From NCBI GenBank assembly GCA_037379345.1, contig CM074524.1, forward strand, positions 6,855,635 through 6,919,634: a DNA stretch of 64,000 nucleotides, written 5' to 3'. The position numbers are program-made. Origin of the DNA: Perna viridis. Lineage: Eukaryota. Position 1 is the stretch's first letter, and each line of letters opens with the position of its first letter. Positions 1 through 33,000 of the stretch are shown piece after piece.

Positions 1-3000
1 GACACAAATAAACATTTTTTTTTTACTTTCCATTGAGCATCATTCATAATAAATCCAAATTAAGAGCATATCAAAACCCAATAAGATATTGAATACTTAC
101 TGAGGTCCACTAACAAAGAAAGAACCAAAGTTGACAGTGCCTTCTGGAGATGTTTTCAGCGTTTGAGGAGCTGGACTCAGCTAAAATAGAAAGACAACAG
201 TTCAAGAAACATACATGTACATCATATGTTTGTTACTATTTTTTTAATGTGTTTTTATTCAGAAGTATTTTCTGAATATCTACATAGTTTCATCAAATCT
301 GGTGCAGTAGTTTATTATATCAGGTACTTTACCTTAATCTTAGTGTCCTTAGCCATATGCATCTATATCAGGTACTTTACCTTAATCTTGGTATCCTTAG
401 TCATCTGTATCTTTATATTCGTGGACTTTACCTTAATCTTGGTATCCTTAGCAATCTGTATCCTTGTATCAGGTACTTTACCTTAATCTTGGTATCCTTA
501 GCTATCTGTATCCTTATATCAGGGACTTTACAAGGATTGTCATCGGCATCACAGATTTGTACAAGAAGGGGTTTGCTGATTTTGTTGTTATTAAGAACAG
601 TCACAGGCTGAAAATTAATCAAAACAATCATAAGATACATGTACATGAATTTGTAAGATTGCACAACAAATCATGTAATAAATGGTTGGTTCACTCAAAG
701 TAGCACTCCAGCTAAGAATCATGCAAAATGTGATTCACGGCTGGTAAGCCTACATATATTATTTTTTATACTTTGTTTAAAATGTTATAGTTAACAGAAA
801 TTAACATGTGACTTTTCATATAACCCATGCTCATAGGAGATACAAACTATATAGAATGTACTGTAGAATTCAATATTAAAGGAGACAATTCAATAAATGT
901 CACAAAAATACAATAGAAACTGTTGGATTTTCCATGTTGATTATCTTCTAAGAGCACTCCTTGTGGACTCTACTCCCGTACCGCAAGATGATGAAGAGCA
1001 GACAGATTGAAAAGAATAATTAAAAATTTCATCATATAGACCTATAAAGTAACTTAATAACAAAAATAAAAATATGTAGCTTTTTTAAAGGTGTATCACA
1101 TTTTACAGATTTTGCATGATTCTCAAAAGACTGCTACTTAATCTTTCTGATACATTTTCTTACACGAGCTAAAATATTTCTTGGTTTCCACACATTCCCT
1201 CCCACTTTTCATGGGTATATTATTACAAAATCAATGAAAATGCAATTAAATGTATAACCCTTAAGTTCAATTATCTCCCTTTAGAGTAGTCAGACACTAA
1301 CTATGTTCCTTCATACAGATCTACATATGATGCCCAACCTTCCTATAAAATTTAATCACAATTCCTTAAGCAGTTTAAGAGGAGTTTCCCAAATGACATT
1401 TAAAATGTTAAGTTGGATTATCTTCCTTCTGCGTGTTAGTCCTTCATGAACCTGCCTCGTACTCAAGTTACACACCTAGCCAGATCTTCATTGTGCTAGA
1501 TCTTCATTTCACAGAAGCAACAGCCTGCAGGTAGGAATGCAATCCCTTTCAGACTCATTCTTCTGACTCTGAGCCAACCAGTCATCACTCTATCCCCATC
1601 AATTCCCCATGCCTGGTGGAGAAACAGTCTCTACCAATTCTAAAGTTGTTGGTTTGACTTAACAGCAAAGATTCGACCCCATGACCTCCCACACTTAAGA
1701 GAAGTAGGTCACCCAGAGGTCACCCAGGAAGTTGATTTATTACTTACTTGATTAAGATCCCATCCAGGTGCTATTAGTTTAGCTGGAGGTCCAGATACAA
1801 GTTGTATCTTACAAAAGTCTCGATGTTCTCTCCACTGAATCTTTATATCCTTGATTCCGACTTTAACTCCAACAAACTGGATCCCCTTTATCACAAATGT
1901 ACCCTAAACGACAAAAAAAAAAATTATTACAATAAGATGATTAAATATATCCCAGGGTAAACAAAGGAAGTGAAAACAGTTGAAATTGGAAGTTACTGTA
2001 CAATAAAATAAAGAATCATAAAACTAAAATTCTGACTTGAAAAAGTGGAATTCAGCTTTAAAACAGAAGAAAAGCAGGCTGATACCAATACATTAAGCAG
2101 AAGAGCTTGCTGACCAAGTGCACAGTAACCAATTTATATAGAATTCAAATATTGGGATTTGTCATATTCCAGCAGAAGATTTTCCATTGAAATCAACATT
2201 TTTACAAGAAATGTTAAAGAATGGCTCCTTGATTTTCTGAACATCATTAAAGAAGCCTGTTCTCAAAATCTGAATTATAATCACAACAATCTTGGTGATT
2301 GAAAGGAACTGTAACTCCTAAGCTGCTATACCTCCAAGACAGTTAGTGAGAAACTGATTTGGACCCAAATGACTCATAACATGATATTACGAAACTTTGA
2401 GAAACCATAATTTTATAGCCATAAATAAAGGTACCTCCACAGTTATCAAAATTATGACTGTTAAAATACTGTAACCGTAATATTTTTTGCTGTTGTTAAT
2501 TTTTGGTGGATTATGTCAAGTCAAAATATTCGCAGGTATAAATTTTGGTGGATTATGTCAAGTCAACATATTCGCAGGTATAAATTTTGATAGATTATGT
2601 CAAGTCAACATTTTCGCATGTATAAATTTTTATAAAGCTTCAAAAAATTATTAGTATCAGAGGCTGTTATAAGTCAATTTTGCAGGTACAATTTTTTTCC
2701 GCTTTTCTGTCCATCGTGAAAATAGCAAAAATTAGTACACCACAAAAATTAATAAGTTCAATGCATACATGAAACAAAACCAGTGGATCATACATGTACA
2801 TTAAATTCCTGAGATTACATATCCTTTTAAGATACACACCTTTGATTGGATAACCTTTATTTTATCAGATTCCAATCCATCTGCAGTTACACTGAACTCA
2901 CTGGTGGTATTTTTTGGCAGCTAAAGAAGAAAAAAATAAATATAATTAAAGAACCTTAGTGAGCGTGCTCACATACCCCACACGTCCTCATGTTGGATAC

Positions 3001-30000: not shown

Positions 30001-33000
30001 TTTACACTTCTTCTTTCATTTAGGAGGGTATTTCAATGAGATCAGTGTTCTCCCCAGGCCATTTTAGTGCTATACTTTGCAGCACTATGATTTCTTAGCA
30101 CTGTGCTATCTGTAATTAATTTTAGTCAGAATGCACTATGGGCACTGTGCTATAATTTTGGAGGAAGGCCAAAAGAGCTGCGCTTTACCAGTAAGCAATG
30201 TGCTATTCAAAAATTATGGGAACTCAGTGTTTGAAACTGAATTTTTTGTCAACACAGACCCATCATAATTTTACATAGAGTGCACTGTACATTTTAAGGC
30301 AACTTGAGCCAATTTCATCATAGTCCTGCTTTATTTTACACAGACTCGGTCTGAATGTCTACTGATAATTTCTTTCACTGGAAATGGAATAATAAGTACT
30401 TCCAAGTAAATATAAATGTATAAAATCTTACCCTAGTGGAAGTACCAATGAAGAAAACAGCTTGTTTCCCGCCAACACCAAAGTAAGATATGTCACTGTT
30501 CAGAGAGAGCGGGACCTCTGGTTGTATCACAGAACTGTTTGAATCTTCATCCTCAATAAAACTCCTAAAAAGCAATATGAATTTAGAATTGCAGATAAGT
30601 TAGTGTACAAGTAAGTTATCTCACTGTTCAGAGACCGTGGGTACTCTGGTTGTATCACAGAACTGTTAGAATCTTCATCTTTTATACAACTCCTAAAAAC
30701 AATAAAAAGATAAAATGTTTCTGCTGAATGTTGAATTGCAGATAAGTTAGTGTACAAGACTGCACAATCTATCATAAGATGATAAATATACCACATGATA
30801 TAAAGAACAAGGTACATTATAGTATGTTTTTGGCCCCCTATTAAGCAGAATTTCTTAACATTGTAATAGAATGTTAGCAATCTGCATTTTAGTTAAGGAC
30901 TCAATGTGGAACAACAACATTACTATATTAGAATTTTGTGTTAGTTCTTGTTGAGAAATGACAAGTCTATCATAGTTAAAAACTCAAGTTTTTGCAAAAA
31001 TAGCTAAAATTTGGTACAATATTGATAACATTTTTCAAACTTGTGATGCCTGTGCCAATGTAGACCCTCCAAAGCTATAGGAATTCTGATAAAATAGACA
31101 AAAACCCTTCAGAATATCAAGATACTACATGAGTCTACTTGTGTTATTGTGGAATGGATAATTTACTTACTTATTTGTAAAATTTTAGAAAACCACCTAT
31201 TCTGACCAATAATCATGACTTAAATACACAGTACAGATAATTCACAGGTGTAAACAATTAAACTTTAGAATTAACACTTTTGTTCAGCAAGTAAAAGATT
31301 GCTCCAACTCAAATATCAATTTTCATAAAAAAAATGGGCCAATTTCACCACTAAACGTACCTAAACCTTTACATTTCAGACACTGTTAGGTAAGATATAA
31401 TAGTTCCCTAACTCAGTGAAGCCTCATTAAGAACTATGAAATAATACCCTCTGGTGTCTGATATCTCAAACTTGTATGGGTGTTAGATTTGTTAATAACT
31501 TACACTTTATCCCGTTTGTCTTTTCTTATGAACTTGGACAGCCTGTAAATGGCCCAGTTGTTCAGTTGTCGTGGTGTCATTCCTTTACCATTATCTATCA
31601 CAAATATACACGGGTTCTTCTCATCGAAGTGCTGAAAAATAATAAAACAATCTCAAAACATTGAACATTTACAAGTGGTATTTGCCAATCACAGTCTTTA
31701 TTATTTCCCTAAAAACCATGCTTCCACAATCACGAAAGCAGAAATCTAATTGACTGATTAGAAAACTCATCAGAACAGAATTTCGAAATGAGCATTGTTA
31801 CGATCCTAAATGCAGAGCATAGGACAGAATGGAACGATTAGTATGTGCAATTTTAATTGGATTGAATCTCCTCAAAACAGATATGCATTTCCAATAAACA
31901 TCAAGTTTGTTACATGTATACTTTCTAAGGTATGGGACACAACTCTTACAAATCATTGGAACGTTTGTATTTACTATTGTACAACAATCTCAGTTAAGCA
32001 TCAAAGTAAGTTGGACTAATTTAATTCTGTTTCAAAGAAAAGCTTAAAAGTCTTTGGTGAAATTGAATATGATACATACATATCACTGATTTGAAGAATT
32101 ATGTACCAGACCCTAGGTCAACCTCCTTAAACAAGAACTACAGAACCAGATAGATTTTTGTCTTTTATGAAAAGATTCACGTCATTTATTTTGGGACTTT
32201 TAACAACTTGATTTATAGAATGGGTTTTGCTGAAGACCATGTGGTGACCTGTAGAAGTTTAATTGTTCGTTGCTTGGCTTTTGGTGGATGAATGTCTTAC
32301 TGGCAATCATATCACATCTCCTATTTCTATATAGATGTCCTTGAGTTAAAATTACCTAGGACCACATTCTTAAGAGTATACATAACTTAATGTTACAAAG
32401 ACATCCTTAAAATTATGATCTTTGATCTTTTCCATGTTTTTGCTTCCAAGGATATACTTGCATAAAGTTCAGTAACCTAAGAAAAACCAACATTTAAAAT
32501 ACCAATAGGATTCCTGATTTCTTTCTTTAAATTCCTAAATGAAGACAATTATAGAGTGTTCATAAGAAAATACCAAATGCTTTTCATAACTTTATCAAAT
32601 CTATTCATAAATTACCTACCAGTCTGAGCTCAATTTTTCTTGGCCCTTCATTTTTGGCTGTGGCTGATAGAGCATTATCTATCAATTCTGCAAAAGCATA
32701 GGCTGAAAAAAAAACATATTAAAATGTACACACTGAAATTATTCATATATCTTAACTTTGCCCTACTCACTCAAGAGCTTAACATTAAAATTCATAGTAT
32801 ATTTTTTAGTATGCAAGTGGATATGGCTTTGATAAAAAATGAAAAGAAAGAGATTACTAGTCTTTCTAAAATTAATGTAGATGACTACATGCAGTGAATC
32901 TAAGGATGATGTATCTTTAAGATATACTGAATTAATTCTAAGAAAGTTTTTTTTTCCCATGTTAAGTGTCAGTATCTGTAAGAACCAAGCAGTGGATGAA

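What the first reader, a model, noticed from the sequence alone, without database searches (positions are those of the whole stretch)
317..30760. Recurrent tandem amplification of exon-intron junctions in SMCHD1 (five separate arrays)
Seen: repeat units straddling a splice site at the exon 30 donor (x4), exon 23 donor (x3), exon 21 donor (x~14), exon 8 acceptor (x5) and exon 6 acceptor (x2). The units are unrelated in sequence, and the three donor arrays share a ~50-53 bp period. In each case only the copy adjoining the intact exon keeps the exon whole. Inference: either junctions are duplication hotspots, or such duplications survive because the extra copies fall into the intron. They create decoy splice sites, copy-number-variable splicing efficiency and raw material for intron sliding.
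Basis: partly seen in the sequence, partly recalled or inferred. Interest (0 to 1): 0.7.

Follow-up and report, generated by a model that had tools for sequence, protein, structure and literature searches.

The report
Splice-junction minisatellites in a mussel SMCHD1 gene
Five short tandem repeat arrays in a mussel-like SMCHD1 gene each began as a copy of an exon end plus its splice site, which leaves spare "decoy" splice sites inside the introns; this kind of repeat is already known from several human genes, and here the spare copies look like tolerated passengers.

Summary
The window is not human. It holds a bivalve SMCHD1 orthologue (closest named protein: Mytilus galloprovincialis) on the minus strand, with 31 exons between 40725 and 100. 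Five unrelated tandem arrays straddle splice sites exactly as described: the donors of exons 30 (x4 plus a partial unit, 50 nt), 23 (x3, 49 nt) and 21 (x14, 53 nt), and the acceptors of exons 8 (x5, 72-80 nt) and 6 (x2, 128-147 nt). Homologues align without a break across the exon-proximal sites. Every decoy donor would cause a frameshift or an in-frame stop. The units have no dispersed copies in the window, and their exon parts are conserved coding sequence, so the arrays arose locally from the exon ends. Enrichment depends on the null model. Per position there is none (5 of 60 junctions against 7.6% of intronic controls). Per array there is about threefold (5 of 14 against 1.7 expected, P about 0.01), in one gene picked after the fact. 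Decoy donor motifs decay like the rest of the unit in two of three arrays, and junction arrays are older than intronic ones. The best reading is neutral, tolerated minisatellites of the type known from human F7, CBS, IFI6, LMNB2 and PDGF. This is a new member of a known kind. Decoy usage and copy-number variation remain untested.

The parts
100..40725 (-). SMCHD1-like gene, exons 1-31 of a longer gene that runs off the low end of the window. The ATPase and S5 region lies in exons 3-14 and Ig-like repeats follow.
   Evidence: Pfam SMCHD1_S5 in three minus-strand ORFs. tblastn of P0001 (Mytilus galloprovincialis), P0080, P0029, P0038, P0113 and P0114. Splice boundaries and phases.
315..531 (-). 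Exon 30 donor array, 50-nt units. U1 531-482 is the last 50 nt of exon 30. U2 481-432, U3 431-381 and U4 380-333 are intronic, followed by an 18-nt partial unit 332-315. There are four identical AAG|GTAAAGT sites: exon ends 482 (true), 432, 381 and 333.
   Evidence: TRF, sequence, unit table and donor scores and frames. P0113 and P0114 align without a break from exon 30 into exon 31 through the site at 482.
13056..13203 (-). Exon 23 donor array, 49-nt units of about 35 nt exon end plus about 14 nt intron start. The true donor is at 13167|13166 (AAG|GTCAGT). Decoys have exon ends at 13118 (AAG|GTTGGT) and 13068 (AAG|GTCTAT).
   Evidence: TRF 13066-13199, sequence, unit table and scores 8.7, 7.0 and 4.5. 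P0114 aligns through to the exon end.
15090..15838 (-). Exon 21 donor array, 14 units of 52-54 nt with a 106-nt two-unit higher order. U1 15838-15787 is the last 52 nt of exon 21 and 13 units are intronic. Ten of the 13 decoy junctions keep GT.
   Evidence: TRF, sequence, unit table and scores. P0114 residues 254-287 align to exon 21 at 59% identity and residue 288 continues in exon 22.
27293..27680 (-). Exon 8 acceptor array. The true copy runs 27366-27293 (about 43 nt intron end, the AG, and the first 31 nt of exon 8, which starts at 27323). Four upstream intronic copies lie at 27435-27367, 27534-27472, 27614-27544 and 27680-27626.
   Evidence: TRF rows 27292-27435 and 27472-27680, sequence, and copy table with 58/68, 52/62, 55/70 and 44/54 identities.
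30484..30758 (-). Exon 6 acceptor duplication. Copy A 30758-30612 is intronic, with a decoy acceptor that would start an exon at 30692. Copy B 30611-30484 holds the true acceptor (exon start 30564) and the first 81 nt of exon 6.
   Evidence: Sequence, alignment 113/127 identical with one 20-nt indel, and acceptor scores 8.3 (decoy) against 4.0 (true).
482..607 (-). Exon 30
13167..13303 (-). Exon 23
15787..15886 (-). Exon 21
27166..27323 (-). Exon 8
30432..30564 (-). Exon 6

Best explanation
These are five independent, locally born minisatellites in a bivalve SMCHD1 orthologue.

Origin. Each array began as a tandem duplication of a 50-147 nt segment containing the end of an exon and its splice site. 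Some then grew by unequal exchange; the exon 21 array has a 106-nt two-unit higher order.

Function of the copies. The copy that adjoins the intact exon remains the working splice site. The others lie in the intron as passengers carrying decoy splice sites. They persist for two reasons: the exon-proximal site is the one the spliceosome picks, and any transcript made from a decoy is frameshifted or stopped and so unproductive.

What is shown:
- the anatomy of the arrays
- their local origin
- the ancestral coding status of the exon part of each unit
- the decoy motifs
- the reading-frame consequences of decoy use
- neutral-like decay of the decoys

What is inferred:
- The choice of the proximal donor. 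This rests on homologue colinearity and on the human F7 precedent of 5'-to-3' scanning.
- Removal of decoy-spliced RNA by nonsense-mediated decay.
- Duplication by slippage or unequal exchange.

The threefold per-array excess at junctions is most simply explained by longer persistence and easier detection next to a constrained exon. One copy is frozen by selection, and deletions that would erase the array risk the exon.
For: - Local origin: none of the five units has a copy elsewhere in the 64 kb. Two purely intronic arrays do (2497-2630 has a relative at 33440-33487; 3166-3905 has one at 46772-47061).
- The exon part is ancestral. P0114 and P0113 align to the unit-bearing ends of exons 21, 23 and 30 and continue without gap into the next exon.
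- Decoys are real. Ten-mers identical to the true donor recur after exons 30 and 21, and 10 of 13 exon 21 decoy junctions keep GT.
- Decoy use is unproductive. After exon 30 each decoy gives a +2 frameshift, and there is an in-frame stop at +51. After exons 21 and 23 an in-frame stop lies at +6 and +21, ahead of every decoy there. The exon 6 decoy acceptor adds 128 nt.
- Decay is neutral-like. Mismatches in the 9-nt donor motif against the rest of the unit are 18/117 against 92/560 (exon 21) and 4/18 against 17/76 (exon 23).
- Junction arrays are older. Mean matches are 82% against 91% for six intronic arrays without dispersed copies, one-sided Mann-Whitney P=0.04.
- There is no per-position excess: 5 of 60 junctions against 83 of 1089 controls.
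- Precedent: the F7 IVS7 minisatellite and four other human genes. In F7 only the most upstream of identical donors is used (PMC1557585, abstract, Introduction and Discussion read).
Against: - The per-array Monte Carlo gives an excess: 5 of 14 against 1.70 (P=0.013), and 7 of 14 within 20 nt of a junction against 2.16 (P=0.002). A purely uniform birth-and-survival model does not predict this.
- In the exon 30 array the donor motif is untouched in all three decoys (0/27 against 20/123 mismatches, P=0.019).
- The acceptor arrays put decoys upstream of the true site, and the exon 6 decoy has the better pyrimidine tract. The 'first site wins' rule known for donors does not explain why the true acceptors would be chosen.
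- In the exon 30 and exon 21 arrays the unit is exactly the last 50-52 nt of the exon, starting at an exonic GT that lines up with the donor GT. Random breakpoints do not predict this.
- No RNA evidence was available.
Confidence: 0.68

Rival explanations
1. Splice junctions are mutational hotspots for tandem duplication. Donor-like motifs inside the exon (GTAAAGT, GTTAGT) and the true donor form short direct repeats about 50 nt apart. These seed slippage, so that units become phase-locked to the donor.
For: - Per-array excess at junctions: 5 of 14 against 1.70, P=0.013. Among the 11 arrays without dispersed copies, 5 against 1.09, P=0.002.
- In the exon 30 and 21 arrays the exonic edge of the array is a GT motif homologous to the donor GT.
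- All three donor arrays sit at phase-0 AAG|GT junctions with periods of 49-53 nt.
- Three further young duplications begin 10, 12 and 59 nt downstream of donors: 16177-16220, 17667-17764 and 23628-23695.
- The M. galloprovincialis model P0001 repeats the 3' part of exon 6 five times. That would be a different junction array in the same gene of a relative.
Against: - There is no excess per position.
- No junction array is young; all are 74-89% matched, whereas intronic ones reach 93-100%.
- Homology at the distal end of the exon 30 array extends 18 nt, more than microhomology alone would give.
- This is a single gene chosen after the fact.
- The P0001 repeats could be an assembly or gene-model artefact, and its DNA could not be examined.
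Confidence: 0.2
2. The decoys are functional. The reiterated sites would recruit U1 or U2AF, or divert a tunable fraction of transcripts into unproductive isoforms, giving copy-number-dependent control of SMCHD1 dosage.
For: - The donor motif is perfectly kept in all three exon 30 decoys while the rest of the unit has 16% mismatches (P=0.019).
- Three exon 21 decoys are identical to the true 10-mer.
- The exon 6 decoy acceptor is stronger than the true one.
- The nearest exon 8 decoy could form an in-frame 30-nt cassette, 27395-27366, AG...GTATGT with no stop (read).
Against: - Exons 21 and 23 show no motif conservation.
- Identical decoys in exon 21 follow the 106-nt higher order, so recent unequal exchange explains them.
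- The single P=0.019 does not survive three tests.
- No expression data are available.
Confidence: 0.08
3. The arrays are artefacts of assembly, or pieces of a dispersed repeat or transposon whose splice-like motifs were recruited as exon ends.
For: Bivalve assemblies are repeat-rich (recalled). Two other arrays in the same gene do belong to dispersed families.
Against: - Copies are 74-89% alike, not identical as in a collapse or expansion error.
- There are no dispersed copies of the five units in the window.
- The exon part of each donor unit encodes residues conserved in distant homologues, so the exon is the source of the repeat and not the reverse.
Confidence: 0.03

Closest known systems
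Human F7 intron 7 minisatellite (37-bp VNTR whose first monomer spans the exon 7-intron 7 boundary), Borensztajn et al. 2006, PMC1557585
   Same: It is a tandem array whose first unit contains the authentic donor. The donor is therefore followed by several identical pseudo-sites that would compete for one acceptor. There, only the most upstream site is used.
   Different: The F7 unit holds 4 exon nt and 33 intron nt, whereas here the units hold 35-52 exon nt. This gene has three donor arrays and also two acceptor-side arrays. Site usage and copy-number polymorphism are demonstrated for F7 and untested here.
Minisatellites at exon-intron boundaries in human IFI6 (6-16) intron 2, CBS intron 13, LMNB2 and PDGF, as listed in the Introduction of PMC1557585
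   Same: [quoted passage not shown] Units range up to 81-100 bp and copies up to 25. In some genes only the authentic site is used. In others the first two pseudo-sites are also used.
   Different: Each is a single array per gene in a vertebrate. Here there are five arrays in the first 31 exons of an invertebrate gene.
Internal tandem repeats at exon-intron boundaries of human genes in segmental duplications (De Grassi and Ciccarelli 2009, PMC2812944; passages read)
   Same: These are repeats located at exon-intron boundaries that can change splicing patterns and intron structure.
   Different: Those are recent, paralogue-variable repeats with transcript evidence. Here the copies are old (74-89%) and no transcript evidence is available.
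Intron gain or sliding by tandem duplication of coding sequence with a proto-splice site (Lehmann et al. 2010, PMC2891723, abstract read; Hellsten et al. 2011, PMC3265369, listing and abstract start only)
   Same: After exons 30 and 21, the start of the intron, including the intronic half of the working donor, is a copy of the exon's own last 50-52 nt. Duplicated coding sequence has thus become intron.
   Different: In that model both splice sites come from the duplicated AGGT and the whole intron is duplicated exon. Here the 3' parts of the introns are unique, and the next exon is unrelated to the unit. The introns are not shown to be new.
Recursive (ratchet) splice sites, AG|GTAAGT (recalled from the Drosophila Ubx literature; no paper read here)
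   Same: Every unit junction reads AAG|GTAAGT or similar.
   Different: The unit-junction AGs have no pyrimidine tract. Their 3' splice-site scores are -9.2 to -1.6, against a median of 10.6 for the 30 real acceptors.

Membership tests
Exon-intron boundary minisatellite (F7 IVS7 type) | Head-to-tail tandem array of a 10-150 nt unit | tested here: met
   TRF and local alignment: periods 50, 49, 53, 72-80 and 128-147; copies 4.4, 3, 14, 5 and 2
Exon-intron boundary minisatellite (F7 IVS7 type) | The first (or last) monomer contains the authentic splice site, so the site is reiterated in the intron | tested here: met
   Exon model with phases, decoy site scores and homologue colinearity through the proximal site
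Exon-intron boundary minisatellite (F7 IVS7 type) | Only, or mainly, the exon-proximal site is used in mRNA | not testable with these tools
   No RNA data. Indirect support only: the proximal donors alone keep the frame and match homologues.
Exon-intron boundary minisatellite (F7 IVS7 type) | Copy number varies between alleles (VNTR) | not testable with these tools
   No second genome of the species. The look-up of P0001's cluster members could not be made.
SMCHD1 | SMCHD1-type S5 (transducer) domain following a GHKL ATPase | tested here: met
   PF22899 SMCHD1_S5 in three consecutive exons, E 2e-17 to 6e-12. Exons 1-14 are colinear with P0001, which carries PF02518, PF13589 and PF22899.
SMCHD1 | C-terminal SMC hinge domain | not testable with these tools
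   The gene runs off the window after exon 31, at about residue 1290 of vertebrate proteins.
Intron created by tandem duplication (Rogers model) | Both splice sites derive from one duplicated AGGT and the intron consists of duplicated exon sequence | tested here: not met
   Only the 5' part of introns 30 and 21 is duplicated exon. The rest, and the following exon, are unrelated.
Transposon-borne or dispersed satellite | Copies of the unit elsewhere in the genome | tested here: not met
   0 HSPs outside each of the five arrays in the 64-kb window, while two other arrays in the gene do have relatives. The test is limited to this window.
Recursive splice sites | Functional 3' splice site (pyrimidine tract plus AG) juxtaposed to a regenerated 5' splice site | tested here: not met
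   3' splice-site scores at unit junctions are -9.2 to -1.6, with 3-10 pyrimidines of 15

The most novel reading that the evidence does not exclude
In this mussel lineage, splice junctions would be preferred birthplaces of minisatellites. Donor-like motifs in coding sequence one period upstream of the true donor would seed duplications that are phase-locked to the junction. As a result, the working 5' splice sites of exons 21 and 30 are themselves built from duplicated codons (donor turnover without change of the protein). The resulting stacks of decoy sites would then tune SMCHD1 output through copy-number-dependent unproductive splicing.
Probability: 0.1. Interest if true: 0.6.

Novelty: new member of a known kind. 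Interest (0 to 1): 0.3.

Why it matters
As it stands, this is a clear invertebrate example of a known oddity, the minisatellite whose first unit contains a splice site. What is unusual is that one gene offers five of them, on both the donor and the acceptor side.

That makes the locus a compact natural test bed for how a spliceosome chooses among identical sites. The acceptor arrays are the most informative, because there the true site is the last of the series and, for exon 6, the weaker one.

It also matters practically. Gene predictors can read such copies as exons, as the Mytilus galloprovincialis model with five copies of part of exon 6 suggests.

If the per-array excess held genome-wide, it would bear on how introns slide and how splice sites turn over.

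Tried and rejected
- Recursive splice sites: rejected. The unit-junction AGs score far below real acceptors.
- Intron gain by tandem duplication: rejected as a full explanation. Only the 5' part of the introns is duplicated exon.
- Transposon or dispersed-repeat origin of the five arrays: rejected within the window.
- Assembly artefact: rejected because the copies have diverged.
- Selection on decoy donor motifs: not seen in exons 21 and 23. It is nominal in exon 30 only.
- The arrays at 16177-16220 and 17667-17764 were checked for hidden overlap with the donor just upstream. They start 10 and 12 nt past the junction and do not include it.
- Full-length mussel orthologues were sought with single exons. 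Exon 10 gave one named mussel protein, P0001, which ends at exon 14. Exon 27 gave only the unnamed P0113. Exon 6 gave P0001 again.
- The cluster members of P0001 could not be listed. It is therefore open whether copy number differs between mussel sequences.
- No orthologous eukaryotic DNA could be fetched. The age and conservation of the arrays across species stayed unchecked.
- Literature searches for mussel or mollusc reports of such arrays, or of SMCHD1 gene structure, found nothing relevant. Supplements of the cited papers were not seen.

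
Full report
What the window is. The 64-kb window has no N and is 32-40% G+C. Three consecutive minus-strand open frames match Pfam SMCHD1_S5, 3 of 55 frames scanned. A search with the single exon 25471-25740 returned 112 proteins, nearly all named SMCHD1. The best hit was a partial Mytilus galloprovincialis protein (P0001, 82% identity over the frame, up to 96-100% in other exons). I therefore take the window for a bivalve, mussel-like, and not for human. All protein searches were made exon by exon. 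The step of joining the exons into a spliced model and searching with it was left out.

Exon model. I ran tblastn with P0001, three named vertebrate SMCHD1 proteins (sturgeon, whale shark, frog) and two unnamed invertebrate-like homologues (P0113, P0114). Together with a scan for phase-compatible GT and AG pairs, this gives 31 exons from 40725 down to 100 on the minus strand. The introns have a median length of 938 nt. A LINE-like element on the plus strand lies in the 5.4-kb intron 23.

The five arrays. All are present.
- Exon 30 (607-482) ends in a 50-nt unit. This unit recurs three more times in the intron, plus an 18-nt partial unit, giving four identical AAG|GTAAAGT sites.
- Exon 23 (13303-13167) has three 49-nt units, each about 35 nt of exon end plus 14 nt of intron start.
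- Exon 21 (15886-15787) ends in a 52-nt unit followed by 13 intronic units with a 106-nt two-unit higher order. Ten of the 13 decoy junctions keep GT, and three are identical to the true 10-mer AAG|GTAAGTT.
- Exon 8 (start 27323) is preceded by four copies (79-85% identical) of a unit made of about 43 nt of intron end, the AG, and the first 31 nt of the exon.
- Exon 6 (start 30564) is preceded by one head-to-tail copy (113 of 127 identical, one 20-nt indel) of the intron end plus the first 81 nt of the exon. TRF does not report this one even at score 30.

Source of the repeats. None of the five units has a relative elsewhere in the window, and the units are unrelated to each other. Two purely intronic arrays of the same gene do have dispersed relatives: 2497-2630 and 3166-3905. 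The exon parts of the donor units encode residues that align with distant homologues. P0114 aligns at 59% identity over exon 21 and continues at the next residue in exon 22. P0113 and P0114 do the same from exon 30 into exon 31, and P0114 does so across exon 23. The exon ends are therefore ancestral and the intronic units are their copies. The exon-proximal donors are the productive ones.

Consequences of decoy use. I built a position weight matrix from this gene's other splice sites.
- Exon 30: the decoys equal the true site (5.9 bits each).
- Exon 21: three decoys equal the true site (10.4 bits) and several others score 7-9.5.
- Exon 23: decoys score 7.0 and 4.5 against 8.7 for the true site.
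- Exon 6: the decoy acceptor scores 8.3 against 4.0 for the true one.

The exon 30 decoys each give a +2 frameshift, with an in-frame stop at +51. After exons 21 and 23 an in-frame stop lies at +6 and +21, ahead of every decoy. The exon 6 decoy adds 128 nt, which shifts the frame. One exception is worth noting. The nearest exon 8 decoy is followed 30 nt later by GTATGT, with no stop in frame (27395-27366, read). It could act as a small in-frame cassette.

Is the overlap with junctions more than chance? I used two nulls.
- Per position. For each of the 60 junctions and for 1089 intronic control positions more than 150 nt from any junction, I aligned the 80-nt window around the position against its 600-nt flanks. 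A local duplicate (score at least 50) is found for 5 of 60 junctions (8.3%) and 83 of 1089 controls (7.6%). Without the LINE, the controls give 73 of 956. There is no excess.
- Per array. I took the 13 TRF arrays with period of 20 or more inside the gene. Overlapping rows were merged, the two exon 8 rows were merged, and shorter-period rows were left out. I added the exon 6 duplication by hand. Each array was placed at random, allowed to intrude into one exon by at most 1.1 units. Five of 14 straddle a junction against 1.70 expected (P=0.013). With TRF arrays only, the figures are 4 of 13 against 1.46 (P=0.038). Seven of 14 lie within 20 nt of a junction against 2.16 expected (P=0.002).

Both rest on one gene that was chosen because it looked odd.

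Selection on the decoys. I aligned junction-centred windows and counted mismatches to the true copy inside the 9-nt donor motif and outside it.
- Exon 21: 18/117 against 92/560.
- Exon 23: 4/18 against 17/76.
- Exon 30: 0/27 against 20/123 (P=0.019).

Two arrays therefore show decay at the background rate, neither purged nor maintained. One shows nominal conservation that does not survive three tests. Junction arrays are also more diverged than the six intronic arrays without dispersed copies. Mean matches are 82% against 91%, one-sided P=0.04. This fits long persistence next to a constrained exon better than a currently active hotspot.

An unexplained detail. In the exon 30 and exon 21 arrays the unit is exactly the exon's last 50-52 nt. 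The exonic edge of the array is a donor-like GT (GTAAAGT within Cys-Lys-Val codons; GTTAGT within Leu-Val codons) that aligns with the donor GT of every later unit. The intronic half of the working donor is therefore homologous to coding sequence. Microhomology between an exonic donor-like motif and the true donor could have phased the duplication. However, both arrays end distally in a partial unit of about 18-20 nt, which needs a further event such as a deletion. The exon 23 and exon 6 arrays fit a plain duplication with breakpoints on either side of the junction.

Comparison with what is known. Borensztajn et al. 2006 (PMC1557585; abstract, Introduction and Discussion read) describe the same arrangement in human F7 intron 7. 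They list IFI6 (6-16), CBS, LMNB2 and PDGF as further genes in which a minisatellite's first monomer spans an exon-intron boundary. In F7 only the most upstream of the identical donors is used, by 5'-to-3' scanning. In IFI6 and CBS the first two pseudo-sites are also used. De Grassi and Ciccarelli 2009 (PMC2812944, passages read) report tandem repeats at exon-intron boundaries that alter splicing in human duplicated genes. Lehmann et al. 2010 (PMC2891723, abstract read) derive new intron positions from tandem duplication of coding sequence with a proto-splice site. The present arrays pass the two structural tests for the F7-type class. The two functional tests (site usage, copy-number polymorphism) could not be made. 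They fail the tests for duplication-born introns, dispersed repeats and recursive splice sites. Searches for mussel or mollusc reports found nothing relevant.

A related lead. The M. galloprovincialis model P0001 contains the 3' part of exon 6 (26 residues) five times with short spacers. All five repeats map to the single copy at 30509-30432 in the window. The 44-residue exon 6 query scores 212 bits against P0001. This suggests a donor-side array at exon 6 in that assembly that a gene predictor read as exons. It could also be an assembly or model error. The DNA was out of reach and the cluster look-up could not be made.

Verdict. Decoy sites exist, and survival in the intron is the better of the two proposed reasons. 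A junction hotspot is neither shown nor excluded. The kind of element is already known, so this is a new member, notable for five arrays in one gene and for acceptor-side cases.

What stayed unchecked:
- transcript usage
- copy-number variation
- orthologous loci in other species; no eukaryotic contig collection was open
- the supplements of the cited papers

Noticed in passing
window 8382-11721 (+), inside intron 23: LINE-like non-LTR retrotransposon with PHD-finger, endonuclease (Exo_endo_phos) and RVT_1 open frames. A 36-bp x 6.2 tandem repeat at 98% identity (8884-9107) lies inside the endonuclease frame.
   Followed up: partly
window 3166-3905 and 46772-47061; 2497-2630 and 33440-33487: Two intronic arrays of the gene (161 nt x 4.7 and 42 nt x 3.2) have diverged relatives elsewhere in the window. 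They probably belong to dispersed repeat families, unlike the junction arrays.
   Followed up: partly
window 16177-16220, 17667-17764, 23628-23695: Three young duplications (22 nt x 2 at 100%, 36 nt x 2.7 at 93%, 31 nt x 2.2 at 97%) begin 10, 12 and 59 nt downstream of the donors of exons 20, 19 and 14. None includes the splice site.
   Followed up: yes
protein P0001 (Mytilus galloprovincialis), residues about 230-423; maps to window 30509-30432: The public gene model repeats the last 26 residues of exon 6 five times. This is either a donor-side junction array in that genome that was read as exons, or an assembly or model error.
   Followed up: partly
window 27395-27366 (-): The nearest upstream copy of the exon 8 acceptor unit has an AG, 30 nt of open frame (LGDSTHVGGE, similar to the start of exon 8) and then GTATGT. 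It is a possible in-frame micro-exon (read).
   Followed up: no
window 49142-49372 (-): An open frame matches Pfam Ribosomal_S8e (E 1.6e-12). It is probably an exon of a neighbouring gene upstream of SMCHD1.
   Followed up: no
window 56636-57014: A 72-nt x 5.2 tandem array (86% matches) lies inside a 167-codon open frame (56548-57051, +) with no Pfam match. It is the only array with period of 20 or more outside the SMCHD1 span, against 13 inside it.
   Followed up: no
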